A stretch of 64,000 bases of DNA, taken from the human T2T-CHM13v2.0 reference genome, Homo sapiens. Made by a program: the position numbers and the translations under genes. The DNA lies in assembly GCF_009914755.1 (NCBI RefSeq), contig NC_060940.1, one strand, 5' to 3'. The notes below the pieces were generated by a model, which saw nothing but the letters and a program-made list of their open reading frames with translations, made no database searches and had not been told where the DNA came from. Below are positions 10,862-29,099 of the stretch, one piece after another (positions within the stretch are counted from its first letter, which is position 1; every line of letters starts with the position of its first letter).

Positions 10862-11461
10862 AGATGTGGAGGGCGTAGGGTGGGGGCAGTGAGGAATGGG
10901 TCCATACAGCCTCTGTCTGCAACATGCTTGGGGTCCCTTAAGCTCCCTCCGACCTCCCAGAAGCCTCCAGTCCCCACCAGGCCCCACTCCCAGTCCTCCT
11001 GGGATCCTGCTGGCTTGGGCCCGGCTCTGGGGCCCCCAAGGCCGAAGGGTGACAAAATACAGGCCCCCATGCCTGGCCCTGCCTGAGCCAGGTGGGTGGA
11101 GGGAGGGAGATCATGAGGGACTTGGAGGGAGCTGGGAGTTCATCCACGGGAGACCCTGCCCCGATGAGAAGGGGCAGGGACTGGGGGCTCTGCTTTGCGT
11201 CTAACCTTTGTGGGGGAGGGCCAGCAAGGCAGTCCCCCCACGCCCGAGAAAGCCTGGGGGACCCAGACACCTGTCCCCACAGTCAAAGCCTGGGGACCCA
11301 GACATCCTGTCCCCACAGTCAGCCTCCTGTCCCTGCTGGTGCCCCCACACCCACCTACCCTGTGCTTTTTGCCGTCGGGCCTCTGCACCTGGGTCCATGG
11401 GGTCTGCGGGGTCTGCGGGGTCTGCCTGGCCTGTGGGTTCTGCCGGTGGGGCTTCAGGAGT

Positions 11462-11467
11462 AATAAA
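11462..11467 (+). terminator. CPNE7: CPNE7 poly(A) signal
   Basis: AATAAA about 600 nt after the stop, followed by a GT/T-rich element. Confidence 0.85.
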
Positions 11468-11934
11468 GTGTCACCCTATCCTTGTAGTTCTCTTGTGCCT
11501 TCAGTCCCTTCCCCAACCCCCCAGAGGGCTGGGCCTGGCTTCCAAAATGCCCACATCTGAGGCAGGGGCTCTCCCAGGCCCAGCACACCAGGATCCTCCC
11601 TGGACTGAATGGGATGCGGGATGCACAGGCTGCCAGGGGCAGAGAGCGGGGATCCGCACCATGGCTGCCTCCACCCGCGAAGGAGCTCCACTCGGCTTCC
11701 TGGGACTCCCAGGCCTGAAACCCAGTGAGTGAGGACTGTGGACGTGATGCAGGGGTGCCAGGAGCCTCCCACATGGCCTGCACCGCAGGGAGCTGGGCTG
11801 GAGGGTGAAGCCTCCATGTGATGTTCGTGGAGCCGGGGCATCTCCCACCTGCTGGGACCTCCTCGCCCTGAGTTTGAGATTTCCCCTGAATGATCTTGCC
11901 TGAGAAAAACAAATTGTCCTAACCCTGAATCCAG

Positions 11935-13200
11935 GCCCACCCATCCCCACATCGGTCCATCCACCCACCCATCCGTCCACCCATCGCCCTGCCCACCCAT
12001 CCGTCCACCCATCCCCCCGCCCACCCATCCCCCCGCCCACCCATCTGTCCACCCATCCCCCCGCCCACCCATCTGTCCACCCATCCGTCCATCCATCCCC
12101 CCACCCACCCATCTGTCCACCCATCCATCCACCCATCCCCCCACCCACCCATCCGTCCATCCATCCCCCCGCCCACCCATCCGTCCACCCATCCCCCCGC
12201 CCACCCATCTGTCCACCCATCCGTCCATCCATCCCCCCACCCACCCATCTGTCCACCCATCCGTCCACCCATCCCCCCACCCACCCATCCCCCCACCCAC
12301 CCATCCGTCCACCCATCTGTCCACCCGTCCGTCCATCCATCCCCCCGCCCACCCATCTGTCCACCCATCCGTCCATCCATCCCCCCACCCACCCATCTGT
12401 CCACCCATCCCCCCGCCCACCCATCCGTCCACCCACCCATCTGTCCACCCATCTGTCCACCCATCCGTCCACCCATCCATCCACCCATCCCCCCACCCAC
12501 CCATCCATCCATCCCCCCACCCACCCATCCATCCACCCATCCCCCCACCCACCCATCTGTCCACCCATCTGTCCACCCATCCCCCCACCCACCCGTCCGT
12601 CCATCCATCCCCCCACCCACCCATCCATCCACCCATCCCCCCACCCACCCATCTGTCCACCCATCTGTCCACCCATCCGTCCACCCATCCCCCCACCCAT
12701 CCGTCCACCCATCCATCCACTCACCCATCCGTCCACTCACCCATCTGTCCACCCATTCCCCCGCCCACCCATCCGTCCACCCATCTGTCCACCTATCTGT
12801 CCACCCATCCGTCCACCCATCCGTCCACCCATCCCCCCACCCACCCGTCCGTCCATCCATCCCCCCACCCACCCATCCATCCACCCATCCCCCCACCCAC
12901 CCATCTGTCCACCCATCCGTCCACCCATCCCCCCACCCATCCGTCCACCCATCCATCCCCCCACCCATCCGTCCACCCATCCATCCACTCACCCATCCGT
13001 CCACTCACCCATCCGTCCACCCATTCCCCCGCCCACCCATCCGTCCACCCATCTGTCCACCCGTCCGTCCATCCACCCATCCGCCCACCCATCCCCCCGC
13101 CCATCCCCCCGCCCACCCATCCGTCCACCCATCCGCCCACCCGTCCGTCCACCCATCCGTCCACCCATCCCCCCACCCACCCATCTGTCCATCCATCCAC
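11935..13200. repeat. (CCAT/CCAC/CCGT)n complex simple repeat
   Basis: 1.27 kb of CCATCC/CCACCC/GTCC units. Confidence 0.95.
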
Positions 13201-13374
13201 TCTGGGGCCTATTTTTAGCTCTTGCTTCGTCCTCTGTTAAGCAGGGATCATGGGTATCGCCATGGTAACCTGGCCAGTCTGTGAATTTCAGAAGGATCAA
13301 TGTTGGTCTCTTTGGGGATGGACAGGCCCAGAGATCACCCCTCCATCCACATCTGAGGCTTCAGGCCCTGAGCC

Positions 13375-14283
13375 GGTCGGGGGGCCTCAGGGGCTGGCCA
13401 GGCAGAGGGTGCGTGTCAGGGCCCTGTGCAGGTGTGGGGGGGTCTCAGGCTGGACAGAGGGTGAGTATCCGGGCCTTGTGCAGATCGGAGGTCTCAGGGG
13501 CTGGGCAGAGGGTGCGTGTCAGGGCCCTGTGCAGGTGTGGGGGGGTCTCAGGCTGGACAGAGGGTGAGTATCCGGGCCTTGTGCAGATCGGAGGTCTCAG
13601 GGGCTGGGCAGAGGGTGCGTGTCAGGGCCCTGTGCAGGTGTGGGGGGGTCTCAGGCTGGACAGAGGGTGAGTATCCGGGCCTTGTGCAGATCGGAGGTCT
13701 CAGGGGCTGGGCAGAGGGTGCGTGTCAGGGCCCTGTGCAGGTGTGGGGGGGGTCTCAGGCTGGACAGAGGGTGAGTATCCGGGCCTTGTGCAGATCGGAG
13801 GTCTCAGGGGCTGGGCAGAGGGTGCGTGTCAGGGCCCTGTGCTGATCGGGGGTCTCGGGCTGGACAGAGGGTGTCAGGGCCCTGTGCAGGTGTGGGGGGG
13901 TCTCAGGCTGGACAGAGGGTGAGTATCAGGGCCCTGTGCTGATCGGGGGTCTCAGGGGCTGGGCAGAGGGTGCGTGTCAGGGCCCTGTGCTGATCGGGGG
14001 TCTCGGGCTGGACAGAGGGTGTCAGGGCCCTGTGCAGGTGTGGGGGGGTCTCAGGCTGGACAGAGGGTGAGTATCAGGGCCCTGTGCTGATCGGGGGTCT
14101 CGGGGGCTGGGCAGAGGTTGCGTGTCAGGGCCCTGTGCAGGTCAGGGGGTCTCGGGCTGGACAGAGAGTGAGTATCCGGGCCCTGTGCTGATCGGGGGTC
14201 TCAGGGGCTGGGCAGAGGGTGAGTATCGGGGCTGGGGCCCTGAGCGGGTCGGGGGTCTCAGGGGCTGGGACAGAGGGTGAGTG
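13375..14283. repeat. Minisatellite with a 103-bp higher-order unit made of about 51-bp monomers
   Basis: GTGAGTATCC at 13461, 13564, 13667, 13771. Confidence 0.93.
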
Positions 14284-15364
14284 TTGGTGCCCTGTGCCAC
14301 CTGCCTGTGGTTTTTGGGCCAGAAAGTGTCAGACGGTTTCTGGGCTGACTGAAAGTCGAGAGGTGTTGGTCCATTGAGATCTTAGCAGGAAGCAGGTGTG
14401 CCGAGGAGTCTACCTCAGAACAGGGTTGGGGCGGCCACAGTGGGGCGCCAGGGAGCTGACCTCAGACAGACAGGGATGGGCAGGTCACTCGGTGAGCTGG
14501 CGCCCTGGAGGGAGTGTGTCCCTTCCCAGAACTGCTGCCTTACAGGGATGTGGCCACTCCCAGACCCCTATGGAGCAAGCAGGGAGTGGCTGTGAGCACC
14601 CCAGCCCCCTCCTCCCACCCTCTCTTCTCCTGCCGTCCTCCCATGGCAGAAGGCAGCAGCCCTGGGGTCAGGCCAGTGGGCAGGCTGGGCCACCCTGGTC
14701 TCTGTGCTGCTGGGTGTCTGGGGTGTGTTTGAGACCATCGAGGGACAGCAGGGACAGGATGGCGTCTGCCAGCTCAGCTCTGAGAATGTGACTTTCGCCA
14801 GCAATTCCCAGCCTGAGAAAGCAGCCCAACGTTGCTCAGAGACGCACGCAATAATAATTTGACTTCTCCCCCTAACCCCGTGGGTCACTGGGATGAACAC
14901 AGGATCCAGGCCTGGCCAGGCAGGGGCTGCTGCCTCCTGGCCACAGTGCTTGCTCCGGGGATGGACGTGCCCCAAGCTGGCCCGTGAGACTCAGTTCTGG
15001 GACCCCTTGTTTCTTCCTGGCTTGAGGAGCTGTGGACAGTGACCACTTAGCGGGGTCACATGGGCAGGGCCTGCCTGGGAAGGACACTACCCAGAGAGCT
15101 GGTGGCAGGTGCATGCTCAGGCCTGCTCCTGTCAGGCCTGCTCCTGAGCCGATACTTCCCATTGAGGAGCCATGAGCTCCCTTTCTGATTAGCTCAGGTG
15201 GGACTGGGTTTCTGTCATTTGCCACCCAAGGATCCTGCCCCAAAAGGATGACAGATGCTCCTTTTTCACAGACAAGAAAATCAGGGTTCAGCACAGTGAG
15301 GTGCCCTGCCCAAGGTCACACAGCCAGTCAGAAGCAGAGGTGCTAGCTTTGTGTAGCTGGTGTG

Positions 15365-15575
15365 CACACACACACAGAGCAACATGTATACACCTGTGCA
15401 CACACATGCGCACCCACACATCCATGCACACACATGCACCCACACGCACCCACACATCCACGCACGCACACGTGCACCCACGCATCCATGCACAGACATG
15501 TGCATACATGCCTAACACATCCACACGGACACGTGCTTAGCCGGGACCTGCAGGCTCCAGGCTGAGTCCTAGGAA
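15365..15575 (+). repeat. Arm 1 of a diverged inverted duplication (partner 17856-18108)
   Basis: CATGCCTAACA...AGCCGGGACCTGCAGGCTCCAGGCTGAGTCCTAGGAA matches the reverse complement of 17856-17920. Confidence 0.8.
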
Positions 15576-16081
15576 TTGAGATGCTAGTTCTGCAGTTCCT
15601 GTAGGTCCACCTGTCAGGCATCTTCCTCCCCGGGGTGTGACATCCGGCTCTGAAACCCAGAGGGGCCCCTAGGGCAGGGCAGTCAGGGGTCCTGCCGGCC
15701 GGTGTGGAGACCCCCAGGTGAGACCAATGGGTTCCCTGAGTCTTCAGCCCCTCCTGACCTCGAATTAGAGCCTGACCCTTGCTGAGAATAGCCTGGGTAT
15801 GACCTGCCTGGATGTGGACTTATTTCCCAAATAAGAAGCAGAAAGTGTGTAGCTGCCAGGACCCCACAGCAAGGGCCACCATGGGACCCAGTCCAGGGAC
15901 TGCCTGCAGCAGGCGGAGGAGCTCCTCCTCGGGGGTGGATTTGAGATTTGGAAACAGCCTCAGTCAAGCTGGACACCAGCTCCCGCTGTGTGACCCTGGA
16001 CAAGCCATCACAGTCTCAGTGAGTCAGAGCCTTGTTCCTTGCCTGTCACGCGGATATAGCAGCTTTGAAACATGGCTCTAG

Positions 16082-16768
<687 letters not shown>

Positions 16769-16799
16769 CCCCACGTGGATTCTGACACCCCACGGTAAG

Positions 16800-17125
16800 A
16801 ATGCTGGGCGCTGCTCCCGTGCTCAGGAGATGTGGCTCCCGGGAAACTGACGATGCTGCGAGGAAGCTCAAGCGCCCGCACCCCAGCTGAGCTCCCGGCT
16901 GGCAGCCAGTGCCAGGGGCCACCATGCGAGTGCACCACCTCCAGCAGCTCCTGTAGCCCCGGGCAGGATGCCCTGCCTGCATCCTCACGAGAGGCCTGAG
17001 CCAAAGCCACACGGCAAATCCTCGTGTGGATTCCTGACCCAGGTCGTGGCCCGGGTTAATCCACGGTTGCTGTTCGAAGCCACTCGGTTTGGGCGTGATG
17101 AGTCGTAGGGCAGGAGGTAACAGAC
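16800..17125 (+). mobile_element. Old MaLR (MLT1-like) LTR fragment
   Basis: 3' end AATCCTCG...TTCCTGACCCA...GTTGCTGTTCGAAGCCACTCGGTTTGG resembles the MLT1 terminus (from memory). Confidence 0.45.
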
Positions 17126-17855
17126 ACATCCTCTTTCCCAGGGATCTTGTGAGGAATGAACGAGGGATGCAGGAGCCCCTGCTGGATAAATAGGTGTCAG
17201 TTTCACAAGGGGAGCCGGCTTCTCCTTATTCTCAGGAACCACCAATCACAGCTGCTGAGCATCCCCCACCCTGTCTTGCTGGCCACCGGCTGCCTGGGCC
17301 TCACAGGCTGAGGACGCGGGGTCAACCCCTGCCCACCCATGCGCGGAGTCGGATGAGGGCTCTGACTCGGTGGGTGGGGGGGGCAGCTGGAGGGAGTGGG
17401 AAGAGCAGCAGCTCAGCGTCCAGGCTGTTCTTTCTCCTGCTGCCGAGGCGAGTACAGGCAGGAAGTTGTGACTAAGTGCTTGTAATTGGTGCGGGGGCTG
17501 TGGCAGGGCTGTCAGACAGGAGTACCGCCGGCCCCTGGCACAGCAGGGCCGTGGGCGAAAGCTGTCTTCCTTGCCACCTCACGCCTCACCTGTCCCTGCA
17601 CTGGGGCCCCACCCCCATCAGAGCCCACCCAGGACCCCTGTCCAGCTGGTGCCTCCCTCCCCTCACCCCATCAAGACCCACCACAGCCCAGGAGTACTGA
17701 GTATTCCAGTACTCACTGAGCTAAGTTCCCACAACAACCCCGCCTGGCTGACTGTTGTGAGTGCATCTCACTGACGGGACGGCCGACCTCAGAAAAACCC
17801 TAGGTGCACTGCTGGGGAGGCAGGGCAGGGTGGCGAGCTGGGTCTGGCCCCTGGG

Positions 17856-18108
17856 TTCCCAGCACTCAGCCTGGAGCCCCTAGGTCCTGGCTGAGAACAT
17901 GTGTGTCTGTTAGGCATGTGTGCGTGCATGTGTGCATAGGCATGTGTGGGTGCATGGATGCACGGGTGCATATGTGTGCATGGGTGTATCTGTGTTGCTC
18001 TGTGTGTGCATAGGCATGTATGCATGTGTGCATGTGTGTGCATGCATGTGTGTGCATGGATGTATGGGTGCATACGTGTGCACAGGTGTAGATGTGTTGC
18101 CCTGTGCA
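17856..18108 (-). repeat. Arm 2 of the inverted duplication (partner 15365-15575)
   Basis: Reverse complement gives CACACAGAGCAACACAGATACACC...AGCCAGGACCTAGGGGCTCCAGGCTGAGTGCTGGGAA. Confidence 0.8.
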
Positions 18109-18319
18109 TGTGGAAGAGGCTGGAGTGGGGGTGTTGGTCCTCACTGCTTTACTGAAACGTCTTTAGGAGCCCCAGTTGCACTGGGACTTGGCCACACTGC
18201 CAGCCCTCCCCATCCCAGGCAGTCAGCATCCAGACCCCAGGTGGAGCAAGTGACGTGCAAGGTCTTGGTGCCCCATTACTCCACCAGGACAGTACGTTAT
18301 CATCCCACTGTGCAGAGAA

Positions 18320-20200
18320 GCACTGGGGGCTGGAGGGAGGCACTGGGGGCTGGAGGGGGGCACTGGGGGCTGGAGGGGAGCCCTGGGGGCTGGAGGGAAA
18401 GCCCTGGGGGCTGGAGGGGAGCACTGGGGGCTGGAGGGGAAGCTCTGGGGGCTGGAGGGGAGCCCTGGAGGCTGGAGAGGAAGCCCTGGGGGCTGGAGGG
18501 AAAGCCCTGGGGGCTGGAGGGGAGCACTGGGGGCTGGAGGGGAAGCCCTGGGGGCTGGAGGGGAGCCCTGGGGGCTGGAGGGGAAGCCCTGGGGGCTGGA
18601 GGGGAGCCCTGGAGGCTGGAGGGGAGCACTGGGGGCTGGAGGAAGCACTGGGGGCTGGAGGGGAGCACTGGAGGCTGGAGGGGAAGCCCTGGGGGCTGGA
18701 GGGGAGCCCTGGGGGCTGGAGGGGAGCACTGGGGGCTGAAGGGGGAGCCCTGGGGGCTGGAGGGGAGCACTGGGGGCTGGAGGGGAAGCCCTGGGGGCTG
18801 GGGGGAGCACTGGGGGCTGGAGGGGAAGCCCTGGGGGCTGGAGGGGGTCACTGGGGGCCGGAGGGGGGCACTGGGGGCTGGAGGGGAGCACTGAGGGCTG
18901 GAGGGGAGCCCTGGGGGCTGGAAGGGAGTCCTGGGGGCTGAAGGGCAGCACTGGGGCTGCAGAGGAGCATTGGGGGCTGGAGGGAAGCAGTGGGGGTTGG
19001 AGGGGAGCACTGGGGTCTAGAGGGGAGCACTGAGGGTTGGAGGGGAGCACTGAGGGTTGGAGGGGAGCACTGGGGGCTGGCAGGGAGCACTGGGGGCTGG
19101 AGGGGAGCACTGGGGGCTGGAGGGGAGCACTGGGGGTTGGAGGGGAGCATTGGGGGCTGGAGGGGAGCACTGGGGGTTGGAGGGGAGCACTGGAGGGGCT
19201 GGAGGGAAGCACTGGGGGCTGGAGGGGGAGCACTGGGGGTTGGAGGGGAGCACTGGGGGCTGGAGGGGAGCCCTGGAGCTGGAGGGGAAGCCCTGGGGGC
19301 TGGAGGGGAGCCCTGGAGGCTGGAGGGGAAGCCCTGGGGGCTGGAGGGGAGCACTGGGGGCTGGAGGAAGCACTGGGGGCTGGAGGGGAGCACTGAAGGC
19401 TGGAGGGGAAGCCCTGGGGGCTGGAGGGGGAGCCCTGGGGGCTGGAGGGGAGCACTGGGGGTGGGAGGGGAAGCCCTGAGGGCTGGAGGGGGTCACTGGG
19501 GGCTGGAGGGGGGCACTGGAGCTGGAAGGGAAGCCCTGGGGGCTGGAGGGGAGCACTGGGGGCTGGAGGGGAAGCCCTGGGGGCTGGAGGGGAGCACTGG
19601 GGGCTGGAGGAAGCACTGGGGGCTGGAGGGGAGCACTGGAGGCTGGAGGGGAAGCCCTGGGGGCTGGAGGGGAGCCCTGGGGGCTGGAGGGAAGCACTGG
19701 GGGCTGGAGGGGGAGCCCTGGGGGCTGGAGGGGAGCACTGAGGGTGGGAGGGGAAGCCCTGGGGGCTGGAGGGGGTCACTGGGGGCTGGAGGGGAGCACT
19801 GAGGGTTGGAGGGGAGCACTGGGGGCTGGAGGGGAGCACTGAGGGTTGGAGGGGAGCACTGGGGGCTGGAGGGGAGCACTGGGAGTTGGAGGGGAGCACT
19901 GGGGGTTGGAGGGGAGCACTGAGGCCTGGAGGGGGAGCATTGGGGGTTGGAGGGGAGCACTAGGGGCTGGAGGGGGAGCACTGAGAGCTGGAGGGGAGCA
20001 CTGAGGGCTGGAGGCGAAGCACTGGGGACTGGAGGGGAGCACTGGGGGCTGGAGGGAAGCACTGGGGTTTGGAGGGGAGCACTGGGGGCTGGAGGGGAGC
20101 ACTGGGGGCTGCAGGGGAGCACTGGGGGCTGGAGGGGAGCACTGGGGGCTGGAGGGGAGCATTGGGGGCTGGAGGGGAGCATTGAGGGCTGGAGGCCAGG
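18320..20200. repeat. 20-21-bp G-rich minisatellite, about 90 copies
   Basis: Unit CACTGGGGGCTGGAGGGGAG / CCCTGGGGGCTGGAGGGGAAG. Confidence 0.96.
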
Positions 20201-20842
20201 GCTGGAAGGGACTGTTCTCCTCATCCCGTGGGTGAAAGCCAGGGCCTCAGGTTGGGCACACAGGGCCTTCCTCAGGCAGCCACAGCTGAAAAAGTTTCCA
20301 TTTCACAGCCATAGGTGGAACCCCACGTCCCCACCGGGACCCCCCATTCTGTGCACATACACCCTACATGATCCCCACACCCAGTTAACGTCCTTCCTGC
20401 AGACACACAGCTACACATCGGTGTCCACACAAAAGTCCAGACAGACTTGTGGGCCAACAGACACACAGGAGCGGGTGGGGTGGGGAGCAGCGGCTGCGGG
20501 TGGCCCTGGGTGAGGACGTTGCGGCTGGGGAGTCGGGCCTAGGCGGCCAGGTTGGTGGGATGCGTTGCCAAGGAGACCACGAAGGCTCTGCGGAGGCCCC
20601 AGGTGTTGACTGGTGCCTGAAATTGACCACGGCAGACGTACTCCCTTGTCTGGAAGGCCGTTCTGTTACAAGGCCGGAGAGGCAGCCCTTGGGCTCCCAT
20701 GGGCTGCACAGGTGCCTGCAAGGGGGTTCGGGTGGTGGGGTTCAGTCCCCAGTGTCTGGGGGGACTGAGGCCTGCTGGGGCAGTGTGGATGGTGTAGTGT
20801 GAGCCATCCTGCCCAGACCTCGCCCCAGCCACCGCACCTTAC

Positions 20843-20989
20843 CTGACTTGGGCAATGTCACCAGGTGGACGTCGGTGTCCTGGGACTGGAAGTTACGTGC
20901 GTCCTGCCAGGGTTCCTGGGCGCGCATGTTCCCTGGCAAGCAGGTGCAGGTGATGGCCTGGACCACGTCCCTGTCTACTGCGTCCTCTG
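20843..20989 (-). pseudogene. Decayed first coding exon of a cytosolic sulfotransferase (probable SULT5A1 relic)
   Basis: Minus-strand translation LPGNMRAQEPWQDARNFQSQDTDVHLVTLPKS-G ends at a phase-1 CAG|GTAAGG donor; ctgacccacag acceptor; matches the SULT 5'-PSB loop; no ATG at the expected start; syntenic with rodent Sult5a1 (from memory). Confidence 0.75.
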
Positions 20990-21929
20990 CTGTGGGTCAG
21001 TGCCTGCCGGGTGGCGCAGGCAGGGAGTGCAGCCGGAGGGCTCCGTGGGGGGGTCTGTTATCCACACGTGCCCTACCAGAGGCCCAGGCAGGTTCTAGCA
21101 GGTGGACACCAGCTCCGCCATCCCCACCGTTAAATACTAGCAGAGGCCCACATTCAGGTGCCCTCCCAGGACCAGCCTCAGCCCTCGTCAGCCTTGCCTG
21201 CCGCCTTGGCCAGGGAAGGCCTTTCCTCAGCAGGAGAGAGACGGTGCTCTGGGCAAGTACCCGCTGGCCCCGGGGCTGTGGGATTCCGCTGCCAGCACCA
21301 CCCACGGTCCCTGTAGTCTGCTCTTCAGTGGCAAACGGGCGTGGCTGGGATGCGTGGGCCTCCGGTGGGAAGGGCCCTTGGGGAGTACCTGTCTCCCTCC
21401 CAGAAGCCTCAGAGCCACGGTGGGGCGGCCGTGGTAGATTCTGCCACAGTCCTCACCTCCCAGGCAAAAACCTCCATTCAATCTTCACGTAGCAGCTGCT
21501 CGGCCTGGGCTGGTGTGAGGGGGGGCTCCCGCAGGCAGGGGTGGGTCTGGATTCCCAGGCAGCCCCTGCCATCAGTCCTCATCCTGTCTTGCCTTCCCCT
21601 TCCCCTGCCTCCAGGGAGGACGGCAGAACAGCCCAGGTGCCTGAGGTCGAGTCCCCGCACTCACCACCACGTCACCTCCACCGGCCGTGCCAAGAAAGCT
21701 CCTCTCTGGAAACGTCTGTGCCACGAAGCCCAGGAGCAGGTGGTGGCCAAGGCAGGGGCAGGCCAGAGTGGGGAGGGATGGGATTGGACTAACCTGGGTC
21801 AGAAGGCTCCGGGGGGCGGGGAGAGGATCTGGGATGCCTCCAGGGCCGTTCCCCCAGCCCTGGGTGTCAGCTCTGCTCCAGGAGGGGCAGAAAAGAGACC
21901 CATCTGCCAGGATGAGGTGAGAATTATTA

Positions 21930-22845
<916 letters not shown>

Positions 22846-23031
22846 GAGGTGAGAATTATTAAATCTCAAGGGACACCAGGCCTGAAGAATCCTGCACAGA
22901 CAGAACCAATTAGGCCTCATAAGTAACCTCAATGTTGTTTGATTCGTAAACATAATTGAAACTTTACTTGAGCTAGAAGAATAGGACTTAGGCTCAACAC
23001 ATCAGAAGCAGCCAATATACGTACACAGTGG

Positions 23032-23556
23032 TGTTGGGAACAGAGACCCTGAGCCTGGCCTAAACAGGCCTTCAAGAAATGGCCGTAAACAGCATTTCTG
23101 CAGCAATGTGACATGCTCGTGATGGCTGTCACACACACTGCTAAAAGTTGTTGGTTTACTGGAGCAGGGCAAGGAACACCTGGCCCACCCGGAGCGGAAA
23201 ACTGCTCAAACCACAACCGATAGCAGGAGCGGCCTGTGCCTTAACATGTTTTTGCTGCAGATAATCAGCCGGAGCCTGTTTCTCTGTTCCTCACTGAGAA
23301 TTTGTTTCCCATAAGGAATGCTTTTAGCTGATCTATAATCTATACAAGCAATGCTTATCACTGGCTTTCTGTCAATAAACGTGTGGGTCAAGCTCTGTTC
23401 AGGGCTCTCAGCTCTGAAGGCTGTCAGCCCCCGATCCCCATCGGCTCTGAAGGCTGTCAGCCCCCGATCCCCACTTTATACTCTGTCCCCGTGTCTTTGT
23501 CTTAATTCCTCTAGCGCCGCTGGGTTAGGGTCTCCACAGCCGAGCTGGTCTCAGCA
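23032..23556 (+). mobile_element. Solo LTR, MER9-like (HERV-K HML-3)
   Basis: TGTTGGGAAC...GAGCTGGTCTCAGCA termini; 6-bp TSD CAGTGG (23026-31 and 23557-62); internal AATAAA; about 33-bp internal duplication. Confidence 0.85.
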
Positions 23557-23858
23557 CAGTGGCCCTTGACGTTTGCGGGGATGGGTTCCGGGACCCCAGT
23601 AGATCATACAATCCATGGATGCTCAAGTCCCTGATAGAAACTGGTGTCATCTTTGCACGTAACTGTCTCTGTGTGTGTCCCGTCGTCTTCAGCTCGGAGG
23701 TGCTCGTGGTTAGCGGGACGCCCGCACTGCACTTTAGGACGGATGTGCAGCGGATTCCAATTTTGCTTTTTGAAACTTTCTGGAATTTTTTTCCAAAAGT
23801 TTCAGTCTGTGTTGGTTACTCTGCACGTGGGGAACCCACAAACTCAGAAGGTCAGTTG
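23557..23858. mobile_element. MER2/Tigger3-like DNA transposon relic
   Basis: GGTTCCGGGACCCC...AATCCATGGATGCTCAAGTCCCTGATA resembles MER2 (from memory). Confidence 0.6.
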
Positions 23859-24550
23859 GAGCCGCGTGGCCTCCAAGGGAACCGACCAAATGCAGCCACT
23901 GCCACCTTTGCCCACCAAGCGTTGTCTCAGGTCTGCCCCGTCTGTCCCGGCTCCCTCTGGAGTCACTTGGTGCCTCCACGGCCACCTGCTGGTTTGGAGC
24001 TGCCCGAGTCGTTAATTGCTGTTTGCTAAATGAACACTTTAAAAGTTATTGTGCCTCAGTTTACTCATTAACACAATGCGGCCCCTCCTAGGACAATTAA
24101 GCAGAGGAATCCAGAGCCCGGTACATCCAGAGCCAGGCCAAAGTGCAGGCGTTATATTAGCAACGCTTGAGTGTCTTTGATTTCTAAAAGATAACACTGG
24201 TTTCCTGTTAGGAAAATGCTGCTGGCTCAGGGTGGCGTGGGCGCCAGAGGTGGATCCACCTCGTCTGTGTCCTCAGTACAGACGCAGAAGGCTTGCCTCT
24301 GCCATCCTAGAACCATGATTTTTATATAATTTTTAAATGTGTGTGTTCCAAGTGGTGAATCCAGCAACAGCCTCATGTGGAGCAAAGCGATGTGAAGGTT
24401 GTAGCATGGGGCACACAGGGTCTTCTCTATTCGTCCCTCACTAACACCCGGGTCCTGCCTTGTGTGTGTTCCCAGCCACACCTTGTTAGGCGACACCGCG
24501 GACACAAAATGCCTCATTCCCTACAGTGCTGCCTGCAGCCAACATCCTGA

Positions 24551-25420
<870 letters not shown>

Positions 25421-25469
25421 AAAACACAAATGGGAACGTGCTGGGCTTACAGACGTGAGCCACTGTGTC

Positions 25470-26788
<1,319 letters not shown>

Positions 26789-26932
26789 TAGAAGCTTTAT
26801 TGAGACAATTCACACACCATAAAATCCATCCCTTTAGTGTGCACAATTGAATGTTTTTAGAATATTCAGAGTCGCACAGCCATCACTACTATTTAATTCC
26901 AGATTTTTAATTTAAAAATTTTCATTGCCCTC

Positions 26933-27790
<858 letters not shown>

Positions 27791-28302
27791 TTAGCACCCA
27801 CTCCCCACTTTCCTTCACAGCCTCAACAACCATGAATCCACCTTCTGTGTCTATGGAGTCACTTATTCTGGACATTTCATATAAGTGGAATCACACGACA
27901 TGTGGTCTTTTGAGTCTAGCTTCTTTCTTTCTTTTCTGAGACAGGCTCCCACTCTGCGGCCCAGGCTGAAGTGCAATGGCGTGATCGCAGCTCACTGTAA
28001 CCTCAGTCTCCCAGGCTCAGGCGCTCCTCCTGCCTCAGCCTCACAGCAGAGACCACAGGTGCGCACCACCACACCCGACTATCTGGCTTCTGCCACTTAG
28101 CGAAATGTTTCTGAGGTTCTTCATGTTATAGCACGTGTCAGCACGTCACTCTTCTTCATGGCTGAGTAATACTCCACTGCGTGAAGAGACACATTTATCT
28201 GTCCCCGTGTTGGGCATCTGCACTCTTCCCACATTTTGGCTATACTAAATTGTCCTGCTACGAACACCTGTGTAGTTTCTGTGTAAAGGTACAGTACCTA
28301 TA

Positions 28303-28687
28303 TGTTGGGGTGATCAGACCCAACCCCAGGTCGTGGGGGTGACAAAGTCCGGCGGAGTCAAAGGATTCAGAAAAACACAGAGAGAGAAAGGTGGCACACC
28401 AGGGGGCCATCGCTATTGTGGAGGCTGCAAAAGCCCGAGCTCTGGGAGCCCACGGTATTTATTGGTAATGCAACAAAGAAACAGATGGTGAGAATATGGA
28501 GGTCAAAAGACCACGTTGCATTAAGCACATGATTACAGCTGTGCCGGTTTAGCATTTATATGGAGCATGTTCTGCTACTTGAGATAATGGGAATAGGGGC
28601 CTAGGAGGGCTAGAAGGAAGGAGCCAGCAAGTGTAGACACATTCCAAAGGACATCATGCAAGCCCTGCCTCAGTTTCCCTCCCAACA
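28303..28687 (-). mobile_element. Solo LTR, LTR3-like (HERV-K HML-6)
   Basis: Minus strand TGTTGGGAGGGAAACTGAGGCAGGGC...GGTCTGATCACCCCAACA; perfect 6-bp TSD CCTATA. Confidence 0.82.
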
Positions 28688-29099
28688 CCTATATGTCTTG
28701 TTGGTATACATGTTGTATTTTCACAACGAAAATGCATGAGAAAAAGGACACAGATGGCTTATGTGTACTGATGTGTAGCATTCTCTAAGATCTGACATCA
28801 CAGAGCTGGACAGCACAGCTGTGCACGCACCCCCCTGGCTGGGAGGTGGCACATCCACACATGAGGGAAAAACACTGCCAGGACATCTCAGGGCACTCTC
28901 AGGAAATGAGGAAGCTGCTGGAGAAGTTTCTAGCCTTGGGGGAGGTCAGGACGCAGAGCCATCTCCTGGAGCAAAGTTCCCTCCTCCTCTCTCCCTCCTC
29001 CTCTCTCCCTCCTCCAGCCCTTCCTTCCGACCCCTGGCCCTTTCTCTCCAACCTTCCCCTCCCCTCCTCCATTTCCCTCCTCTTTCTACTTTCAGAGAA

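What the first reader, a model, noticed from the sequence alone, without database searches (positions are those of the whole stretch)
20843..20989. Fossil sulfotransferase exon between CPNE7 and DPEP1: probable human SULT5A1 unitary pseudogene
Seen: on the - strand, ctgacccacag| opens an exon reading ...LPGNMRAQEPWQDARNFQSQDTDVHLVTLPKS-G that ends at a consensus CAG|GTAAGG donor in phase 1. Established: cytosolic SULTs carry F-x-x-x-D-x-D...T(Y/F)PKSGTTW, the PAPS-binding 5'-PSB loop, and their first coding intron typically splits the Gly of PKSG in phase 1, as here. From memory, mouse has Sult5a1 between Cpne7 and Dpep1 with a very similar N-terminus, and human has no SULT5A1 gene. The expected start is missing: an out-of-frame ACG followed by TAG lies near 20976-20984, and the only in-frame ATG is internal. 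Inference: this is a lost gene whose first exon kept its splice sites and about 48 open codons while later exons are barely recognisable.
Basis: partly seen in the sequence, partly recalled or inferred. Interest (0 to 1): 0.85.

Follow-up and report, generated by a model that had tools for sequence, protein, structure and literature searches.

The report
Dead sulfotransferase first exon, human 16q24.3
Between the human genes CPNE7 and DPEP1 lies one leftover exon of a sulfotransferase gene that people no longer have, an ordinary gene fossil that shows the gene decayed where it stood.

Summary
On the minus strand, 20843-20989 reads ...LPGNMRAQEPWQDARNFQSQDTDVHLVTLPKS-G between a cacag| acceptor and a TCAG|GTAAGG donor in phase 1.

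It is a relic of a cytosolic sulfotransferase (SULT) first coding exon:
- 9 of 9 human SULT genes that my pattern scan picked up end that exon at PK(S/A)|G plus GT in phase 1.
- A profile of 8 human first exons scores it 21.3 bits, E 1.5e-4, among 10,773 open-frame fragments. The best background fragment scores 7.3 bits.
- 0 of 20,000 shuffles reach its score.
- 3 of 4 PDB hits at E up to 10 are SULT N-termini.

It is single-copy. Its identity to every human SULT is in the between-family range, so it is not a copy of a living human gene.

It is dead. There is no start codon. No later SULT exon turns up anywhere in the window. About half of the 9.4 kb down to CPNE7 is minisatellite and Alu sequence.

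The SULT5A1 label could not be tested. I obtained no SULT5A1 sequence, and the mouse gene order is recalled only. It is the likeliest parent by elimination.

This is an unannotated unitary pseudogene fragment of modest interest.

The parts
20990..21000 (-). 3' splice acceptor context 'ctgacccacag|' just upstream of the relic exon
   Evidence: Read directly. The AG is at 20991-20990. Whether it is used was not tested.
20843..20989 (-). Relic of a cytosolic sulfotransferase first coding exon, 147 nt, reading ...NFQSQDTDVHLVTLPKS-G
   Evidence: Translation. SULT first-exon profile: E 1.5e-4, 21.3 bits, against 7.3 bits for the best background fragment. 0 of 20,000 shuffles reach its score. 3 of 4 PDB hits are SULT N-termini that end at PKSG. 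First-exon fragments of SULT1B1, 6B1, 1C2, 1A1 and 1A2 and of a processed SULT1C2 pseudogene all hit it, E 0.004-0.084.
20843..20852 (-). Codons for P-K-S plus the first base of Gly: the start of the PAPS-binding 5'-PSB loop, cut by the intron in phase 1
   Evidence: The same break is found in 9 of 9 human SULT genes caught by the pattern. The residue before PKSG is L here and Y in all 9 of those genes.
20837..20842 (-). 5' splice donor GTAAGG after TCAG
   Evidence: Read directly. For comparison, the SULT1A1 donor at the same place is GTAAGT and the SULT2A1 and SULT1C3 donors are GTAAGG.
20745..20996 (-). The 84-codon stop-free frame that holds the exon and runs 33 codons into the intron; TGA just upstream at 20997-20999
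   Evidence: Chance probability of 84 open codons is 0.12.
20975..20983 (-). Out-of-frame ACG CAG TAG near the exon's 5' end; no in-frame ATG before the internal Met
18319..20195 (.). Minisatellite, 20-bp unit x 92.9 copies, in the territory where downstream exons should lie
   Evidence: GC skew is +0.54 to +0.59 at 18500-19999.
13401..14297 (.). Minisatellite with 51/103-bp units, in the former gene body
11937..13199 (.). Minisatellite with 12/28/40/108-bp units, next to the 3' end of CPNE7
   Evidence: GC skew is -0.83 to -0.86.
16155..16775 (.). Masked repeat with Alu-like sequence, in the former gene body
   Evidence: Masked-repeat annotation; TRF rows 16162-16758; Alu-type peptides.

Best explanation
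This is the last recognisable piece of a cytosolic, PAPS-dependent sulfotransferase gene that once sat on the minus strand between CPNE7 and DPEP1. The gene has been lost in the human lineage, so the piece is a unitary pseudogene fragment.

Only the first coding exon survives. It encodes the N-terminal arm and the start of the PAPS-binding 5'-PSB loop (PKSG), and it still has its acceptor and a strong donor. It has no start codon. The exons that carry the rest of the PAPS-binding and catalytic core are gone or decayed beyond detection, and the 9.4 kb where they should lie is about half minisatellite and Alu sequence. It makes no enzyme and most likely does nothing.

Shown: it is a SULT first exon, single copy, from a family without a living human member, and it has no detectable later exons.

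Inferred: the parent is SULT5A1. This rests on elimination and on recalled mouse gene order.
For: - Frame, acceptor and donor are as described.
- The exon ends at PKS|G in phase 1, exactly as in SULT1A1 (148-nt first coding part) and in 9 of 9 human SULT genes caught by the pattern scan.
- A profile HMM of 8 human SULT first exons, relic left out, was run against 10,773 open-frame fragments of the window and 33 loci. The relic has E 1.5e-4 and 21.3 bits. The only other non-training hits above noise are real SULT first exons: SULT6B1, SULT1D1P, SULT1D1P2 and the chr14 processed pseudogene. The best background fragment has 7.3 bits.
- 0 of 20,000 shuffles reach its 22.7 bits; the best shuffle has 9.2.
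- PDB phmmer: 3 of 4 hits at E<=10 are SULTs, aligned so that both sequences end at PKSG. SULT1C3 has E 0.37.
- Six paralogue first-exon fragments hit it and nothing else credible in 11400-28900.
- It is single copy in the genome by protein and DNA search.
- Identity is 7-12 of 26 columns to each human SULT first exon. That is the between-family range (8-14 of 36), not the within-SULT1 range (17-19 of 36).
- No later exon is found.
- RefSeq names pseudogenes for SULT1D1 and SULT6B2 but none here.
- SULT5A1 exists in fish, frog and rodents and is described as absent from non-rodent mammals.
Against: - No SULT5A1 sequence could be compared, so orthology is untested. Mouse synteny is recalled only.
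- Pfam PF00685 does not match the peptide or the window. This is expected, because the exon covers at most the first 12 of 255 profile positions, but it means the curated family test is not met.
- The profile score alone would not be significant genome-wide. My scaling from 264 kb to 3.1 Gb gives E of about 2. Significance rests on the 64-kb search space plus the exact intron position.
- The residue before PKSG is L, where all 9 human genes have Y.
- The first 17 residues of the 49-residue reading align to nothing.
Confidence: 0.7

Rival explanations
1. It is a relic of a SULT gene, but not of SULT5A1. It could come from another family lost in humans (for example SULT3-like), or it could be an old duplication of one exon that never belonged to a complete gene at this site.
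For: The family-level evidence does not tell SULT families apart. Only one exon is present. The best single paralogue match is SULT1C3, 12 of 26 columns. A review mentions a human SULT3 pseudogene whose place I did not find.
Against: Identity to every human family is in the between-family range. I recall, without checking, that mouse Sult3a genes lie on a chromosome not syntenic with 16q24 and that Sult5a1 lies beside Cpne7 and Dpep1. Both splice sites are retained, which fits an exon decaying in place.
Confidence: 0.17
2. It is a chance resemblance: an open frame in G+C-rich DNA that happens to end in PKSG before a GT.
For: Open frames are common here: 100 ORFs of at least 40 aa in 11 kb, and P = 0.30 for 48 open codons. 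Pfam gives no hit. PDB E-values are 0.37-1.8. My genome-wide scaling of the profile E-value gives about 2.
Against: E is 1.5e-4 in the space actually searched, with a 14-bit gap to background. 0 of 20,000 shuffles reach the score. 3 of 4 PDB hits, out of 177,635 distinct sequences, are SULT N-termini in register. The intron position and phase are identical to the family's.
Confidence: 0.04
3. The exon is still in use. It is spliced into an unannotated minus-strand transcript, a lncRNA or a short ORF from the internal ATG or GTG, so its splice sites are kept by selection.
For: The donor is strong and an acceptor is present. There is a 74-codon GTG-started ORF at 20742-20966. An hESC enhancer mark is annotated at 14388-15301.
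Against: RefSeq annotates no transcript between CPNE7 and DPEP1 (finding's annotation). There is no CpG island; o/e is at most 0.56. No named protein of 46-147 aa shares words with the frame. Both splice sites can survive by chance in a short relic.
Confidence: 0.05

Closest known systems
Mouse Sult5a1 / vertebrate SULT5A1 (presumed parent gene)
   Same: It is a cytosolic SULT family with no functional human member. It is reported in rodents, frog and fish. I recall, without checking, that the mouse gene lies between Cpne7 and Dpep1. The human orthologues of the fish gene's neighbours hp and pkd1l3 are on the same arm of chromosome 16.
   Different: No sequence comparison was possible. The human locus keeps one exon and no start codon, so it cannot encode the enzyme.
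Human SULT1D1P (chr4), a known unitary SULT pseudogene
   Same: It is an unprocessed relic of a SULT that rodents keep and humans lost (Sult1d1 is in the unitary-pseudogene table of PMC2864566). Its first exon scores like this one against the profile: 24.3 against 21.3 bits.
   Different: SULT1D1P keeps several exons that Pfam still finds, with hits at chr4:73.126-73.146 Mb, and it is annotated. The 16q24.3 relic keeps one exon and is not annotated in RefSeq.
Human SULT6B2P / SULT7A1 pseudogene, 12p12.1
   Same: It is another SULT family lost in primates and kept in mouse. The loss is described in PMC10939482 (passages read).
   Different: It is annotated and transcribed, and Pfam still detects an exon.
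First coding exons of living human SULT genes (SULT1A1, 1B1, 1C2-4, 1E1, 2A1, 4A1)
   Same: The exon has the same length class: 147 nt against a 148-nt coding part in SULT1A1. It has the same PK(S/A)|G phase-1 end and shares the W...(N)FQ...D.D...T.PKSG pattern.
   Different: It has no ATG. It has L instead of Y before PKSG. It shares only 7-12 of 26 aligned residues.

Membership tests
Cytosolic sulfotransferase (SULT) gene | N-terminal region ending in the 5'-PSB loop motif (T-[YF]-P-K-S-G-T-T-W) | tested here: inconclusive
   T-L-P-K-S-G is present, with L where 9 of 9 human genes have Y. The T-T-W part belongs to the next exon, which is absent.
Cytosolic sulfotransferase (SULT) gene | First coding intron in phase 1 inside the Gly codon of PKSG | tested here: met
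   The relic reads TCA G|GTAAGG. The same break is found in SULT1A1 by annotation and in 9 of 9 genes caught by the pattern scan. SULT2B1 and SULT6B1 were not caught by that pattern.
Cytosolic sulfotransferase (SULT) gene | Significant sequence similarity of the exon to SULT first exons | tested here: met
   Own profile: E 1.5e-4 among 10,773 fragments. 0 of 20,000 shuffles reach the score. 3 of 4 PDB hits are SULTs.
Cytosolic sulfotransferase (SULT) gene | Pfam PF00685 (Sulfotransfer_1) match over the curated cut-off | tested here: not met
   0 families for the peptide. 0 of 135 genome matches lie in the window. The exon covers at most the first 12 of 255 profile positions.
Cytosolic sulfotransferase (SULT) gene | Later exons with the catalytic His and the 3'-PB / GxxGxxK PAPS-binding motifs | tested here: not met
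   Exon-wise profiles against all 2,601 window fragments give best E values of 0.26-5.7. BLAST and Pfam find none.
Cytosolic sulfotransferase (SULT) gene | Intact reading frame with a start codon (a working gene) | tested here: not met
   There is no in-frame ATG before the internal Met, and a TGA lies at 20997-20999.
Unitary pseudogene of SULT5A1 | Best match to SULT5A1 orthologues rather than to other SULT families | not testable with these tools
   No SULT5A1 sequence could be fetched. No mammalian genomes other than the human reference are on hand.
Unitary pseudogene of SULT5A1 | Conserved gene order (Cpne7 - Sult5a1 - Dpep1 in species that keep the gene) | not testable with these tools
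   Recalled only. 0 papers hold Sult5a1 with Cpne7 or with 'chromosome 8'.
Unitary pseudogene of SULT5A1 | No functional member of the same family elsewhere in the genome | tested here: met
   Single copy. Identity to all human SULT first exons is in the between-family range.
Processed (retrocopied) pseudogene | Intronless copy of an mRNA | tested here: not met
   The match stops exactly at an exon boundary with a donor site. The next exon does not follow.

The most novel reading that the evidence does not exclude
The exon is not a passive fossil. Its acceptor, its strong donor and its 84-codon open frame persist because it is still spliced into a human minus-strand transcript between CPNE7 and DPEP1, so a dead enzyme gene's first exon has been reused as a non-coding or micropeptide exon.
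Probability: 0.05. Interest if true: 0.5.

Novelty: new member of a known kind. Interest (0 to 1): 0.3.

Why it matters
It would add one entry to the list of human unitary pseudogenes and complete the account of the human SULT family.

[quoted passage not shown] A relic in place would show that the loss was decay on the spot and not a clean deletion. It would also give a marker for dating the loss across primates and other mammals.

It also matters for carrying mouse sulfation data over to humans, because mouse SULT5A1 has no human counterpart.

It has no bearing on human enzyme function, because no protein can be made.

Tried and rejected
1. Pfam on the 49-residue and 84-residue readings gave nothing. 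Pfam PF00685 over the whole genome gave 135 matches, none in the window.

2. The word search with the 84-residue frame, region 1-52, found no named candidate of 46-147 aa. One candidate of unnamed source was left out by the tool. I left the other two searches unused. A general SULT query would return thousands of SULT1 and SULT2 clusters ahead of SULT5A1, and no stop-free reference of at least 163 aa contains the exon.

4. Looking for a natural long open frame around a paralogue's first exon to align with the relic did not work. The longest were the SULT4A1 frame at 119 codons and the SULT1C3 frame at about 105-111 codons, too short.

5. Later exons were sought three ways. BLAST of paralogue exon fragments gave no SULT-exon match outside the relic frame among the best 60 rows printed; many of the other rows fall in masked or Alu-like stretches. 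Exon-wise profiles gave a best E of 0.26. A G-T-T-W exon-start pattern gave 6 hits against 7.66 expected; the one minus-strand hit, 17642-17654, reads TSWTGVLGGL and then a stop, and was rejected.

6. A CpG island or promoter at the exon: none, o/e at most 0.56.

7. Literature.
- 66 papers hold 'SULT5A1' (30 listed).
- None of those I read in passages mentions a human relic.
- 'SULT5A1P' has 1 hit, which is the rat probe name Sult5a1_predicted.
- The unitary-pseudogene paper lists Sult1d1 only in its main text.
- PMC7555810 and PMC6842137 have no 'Sult' in the main text.
They may list more genes.
- Mouse gene order is not in any held text.

GENCODE could not be consulted.

Full report
WHAT IS THERE.
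On the minus strand the sequence reads ...ctgacccacag|CAGAGGACGCAGTAG...CCCAAGTCAG|gtaagg. In the frame of 20841-20987 it translates to EDAVDRDVVQAITCTCLPGNMRAQEPWQDARNFQSQDTDVHLVTLPKSG. The other two frames carry stops.

The exon runs from 20989 to 20843 and is 147 nt long. Its last base is the first G of the Gly codon, so the intron is in phase 1. The donor is TCAG|GTAAGG. The frame is stop-free for 84 codons, 20745-20996, and a TGA lies just upstream. There is no in-frame ATG before the internal Met.

IS IT MORE THAN CHANCE?
The open frame is not evidence. The region has about 64% G+C. At that composition 48 open codons have probability 0.30 and 84 have 0.12. The 11 kb around the exon holds 100 ORFs of at least 40 aa.

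The family resemblance is evidence.
- Intron position. By RefSeq coordinates the first coding part of SULT1A1 is 148 nt and ends ...TYPKS|G in phase 1 with donor GTAAGT. A pattern scan of the fetched human SULT loci found the same PK(S/A)|G plus GT break in 9 of 9 genes it caught: 1A1, 1A2, 1B1, 1C2, 1C3, 1C4, 1E1, 2A1 and 4A1. A tenth row, in the SULT2B1 locus, was a false hit whose frame carries the same peptide run as Alu-type ORFs of the window. SULT6B1, which has PKCG, and the true SULT2B1 first exons were not caught by the pattern.
- Profile score. I built a profile HMM from 8 of those first-exon peptides, with the relic left out. I ran it without filters against 10,773 stop-to-stop fragments (429,037 aa) from the window and all fetched loci. 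After the training exons, the only hits above noise were the chr14 processed SULT1C2 pseudogene (9e-10), SULT6B1 (1.6e-8), SULT1D1P (1.7e-5), the relic (1.5e-4, 21.3 bits) and SULT1D1P2 (1.6e-4). The next fragment scored 7.3 bits, E 3.4.
- Shuffles. None of 20,000 shuffles of the relic peptide reached its 22.7 bits. The best shuffle scored 9.2, and 18,478 shuffles received a score at all.
- PDB. In a search of 177,635 distinct PDB sequences, 3 of the 4 hits at E<=10 were cytosolic SULTs. SULT1C3 had E 0.37 and 0.74, and an 'S4 sulfotransferase' had E 1.8. Each aligned its N-terminal residues 26-60 with the end of the peptide, so that both stop at PKSG. The fourth hit was NELL1.
- Paralogue BLAST. 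First-exon fragments of SULT1B1 (0.004), SULT6B1 (0.007), SULT1C2 (0.012), SULT1A1 (0.034), the chr14 pseudogene (0.035) and SULT1A2 (0.084) all hit the relic frame among 712 fragments of 11400-28900.

Caveat, my own scaling. The profile E-value refers to 264 kb. Scaled to the whole genome it would be about 2.

Pfam PF00685 does not see the peptide. The exon covers at most the first 12 of its 255 positions. In other SULT genes the Pfam exon hits start at position 12-13, which is the next exon.

WHAT KIND OF SULT?
The exon is single copy. A protein search of the whole reference returned only itself and one chance hit at E 5.96. A DNA search returned only itself.

Over the 26 profile columns it fills, it shares 7-12 residues with each human SULT first exon, with SULT1C3 the best. 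Different human families share 8-14 of 36 columns, and members of SULT1 share 17-19 of 36. So it is not a copy of a living human SULT. It represents a family with no other member in the genome.

RefSeq on T2T names pseudogenes for SULT1D1, SULT1C5 and SULT6B2 and several processed copies, but nothing between CPNE7 and DPEP1 (the finding's annotation).

SULT5A1 is the obvious candidate.
- It is present in fish and frog and, per a review, in rodents alone among mammals.
- It has not been identified in humans.
- In medaka and zebrafish it sits by hp and pkd1l3. The human orthologues of those genes lie on the same arm of chromosome 16, at 77.7-77.9 Mb.
- From memory, not from any call, I recall that mouse Sult5a1 lies between Cpne7 and Dpep1.

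I could not test this. No SULT5A1 sequence was obtainable, and no held paper states the mouse gene order.

WHAT IS LEFT OF THE GENE?
Nothing else that I could detect.
- Pfam found 135 SULT-type matches in the genome and none in the window.
- Paralogue exon fragments gave no SULT-exon match in 11400-28900 outside the relic frame, among the best 60 rows printed.
- Exon-wise profiles for exons 2-7, each from 9-13 paralogue sequences, were run against all 2,601 fragments of the window. Their best E values were 0.51, 0.26, 0.75, 0.27, 5.7 and 5.4, none credible in place or strand.
- A pattern for the expected start of exon 2 gave 6 hits against 7.66 expected. The one candidate reads TSWTGVLGGL and then a stop.

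These tests use paralogues that are only distantly related to the lost gene, so badly decayed exons could escape them.

The 9.4 kb between the exon and CPNE7 holds three minisatellite arrays: 11937-13199, 13401-14297, and 18319-20195 with 20 bp x 93 copies. It also holds Alu sequence at 16155-16775. There is no CpG island at the exon.

HOW IT WORKS.
It does not. The best reading is a unitary pseudogene fragment. The ancestral gene made a PAPS-dependent cytosolic sulfotransferase. In the human lineage the start codon and all exons after the first were lost, by decay, by deletion or by being overrun by repeats.

The survival of both splice signals and of an open frame in one 147-nt exon needs no selection. 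My confidence that it is a SULT first-exon relic is about 0.9. My confidence that the parent is SULT5A1 is about 0.7-0.75.

RIVALS.
- Another lost SULT family, or a lone duplicated exon: 0.17.
- Chance: 0.04.
- Continued use as an exon of an unannotated transcript: 0.05, and not exclusive of the main reading.

NOVELTY AND INTEREST.
I found no mention of a human SULT5A1 relic in the held literature. A 2015 review says the gene has been lost from non-rodent mammals and mentions no remnant. The 2010 unitary-pseudogene survey lists only Sult1d1 in its main text, and I could not see its supplements. I could not check GENCODE.

This is a new member of a well-known kind and useful for annotation and for dating the loss. 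It is not surprising to a specialist. Interest is 0.3.

Noticed in passing
G000 chr19:59452424-59452639 (+), and chr19:59582382-59598880 (-), T2T coordinates: Pfam PF00685 matches shaped like SULT2-type exons: positions 12-93 at E 2.8e-10, 93-150 at E 4.5e-10, 90-134 at E 2.6e-4, and 134-166 at E 6.4 (below the cut-off). They lie in the ZSCAN5A / ZNF667 zinc-finger region, where RefSeq names no sulfotransferase gene or pseudogene. They may be another unannotated SULT relic cluster.
   Followed up: partly
window 11937-13199, 13401-14297, 18319-20195: Three large minisatellite arrays fill much of the CPNE7-DPEP1 spacer. They have extreme strand asymmetry: GC skew is -0.86 at 12500-12999 and +0.59 at 19500-19999. 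They create very long spurious ORFs, up to 558 aa.
   Followed up: partly
window 15281-15621 and 17789-18144: Two blocks of imperfect CA/TG-rich repeat give similar His/Thr/Cys-rich ORFs on both strands. Whether they are copies of each other was not examined.
   Followed up: no
L033:4789-4935 (-), chr12 SULT6B2P locus: This is the best 'background' fragment for the SULT first-exon profile, at 7.3 bits and E 3.4. It lies inside the SULT6B2P locus, so it may itself be a decayed first exon and not noise.
   Followed up: no
window 20745-20996 (-): The word search reported one candidate protein of 46-147 aa that shares words with the frame. The tool left it out because it has no named source. Its nature is unknown.
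   Followed up: no
window 14388-15301: RefSeq marks an H3K27ac-H3K4me1 hESC enhancer inside the former gene body, between two repeat arrays.
   Followed up: no
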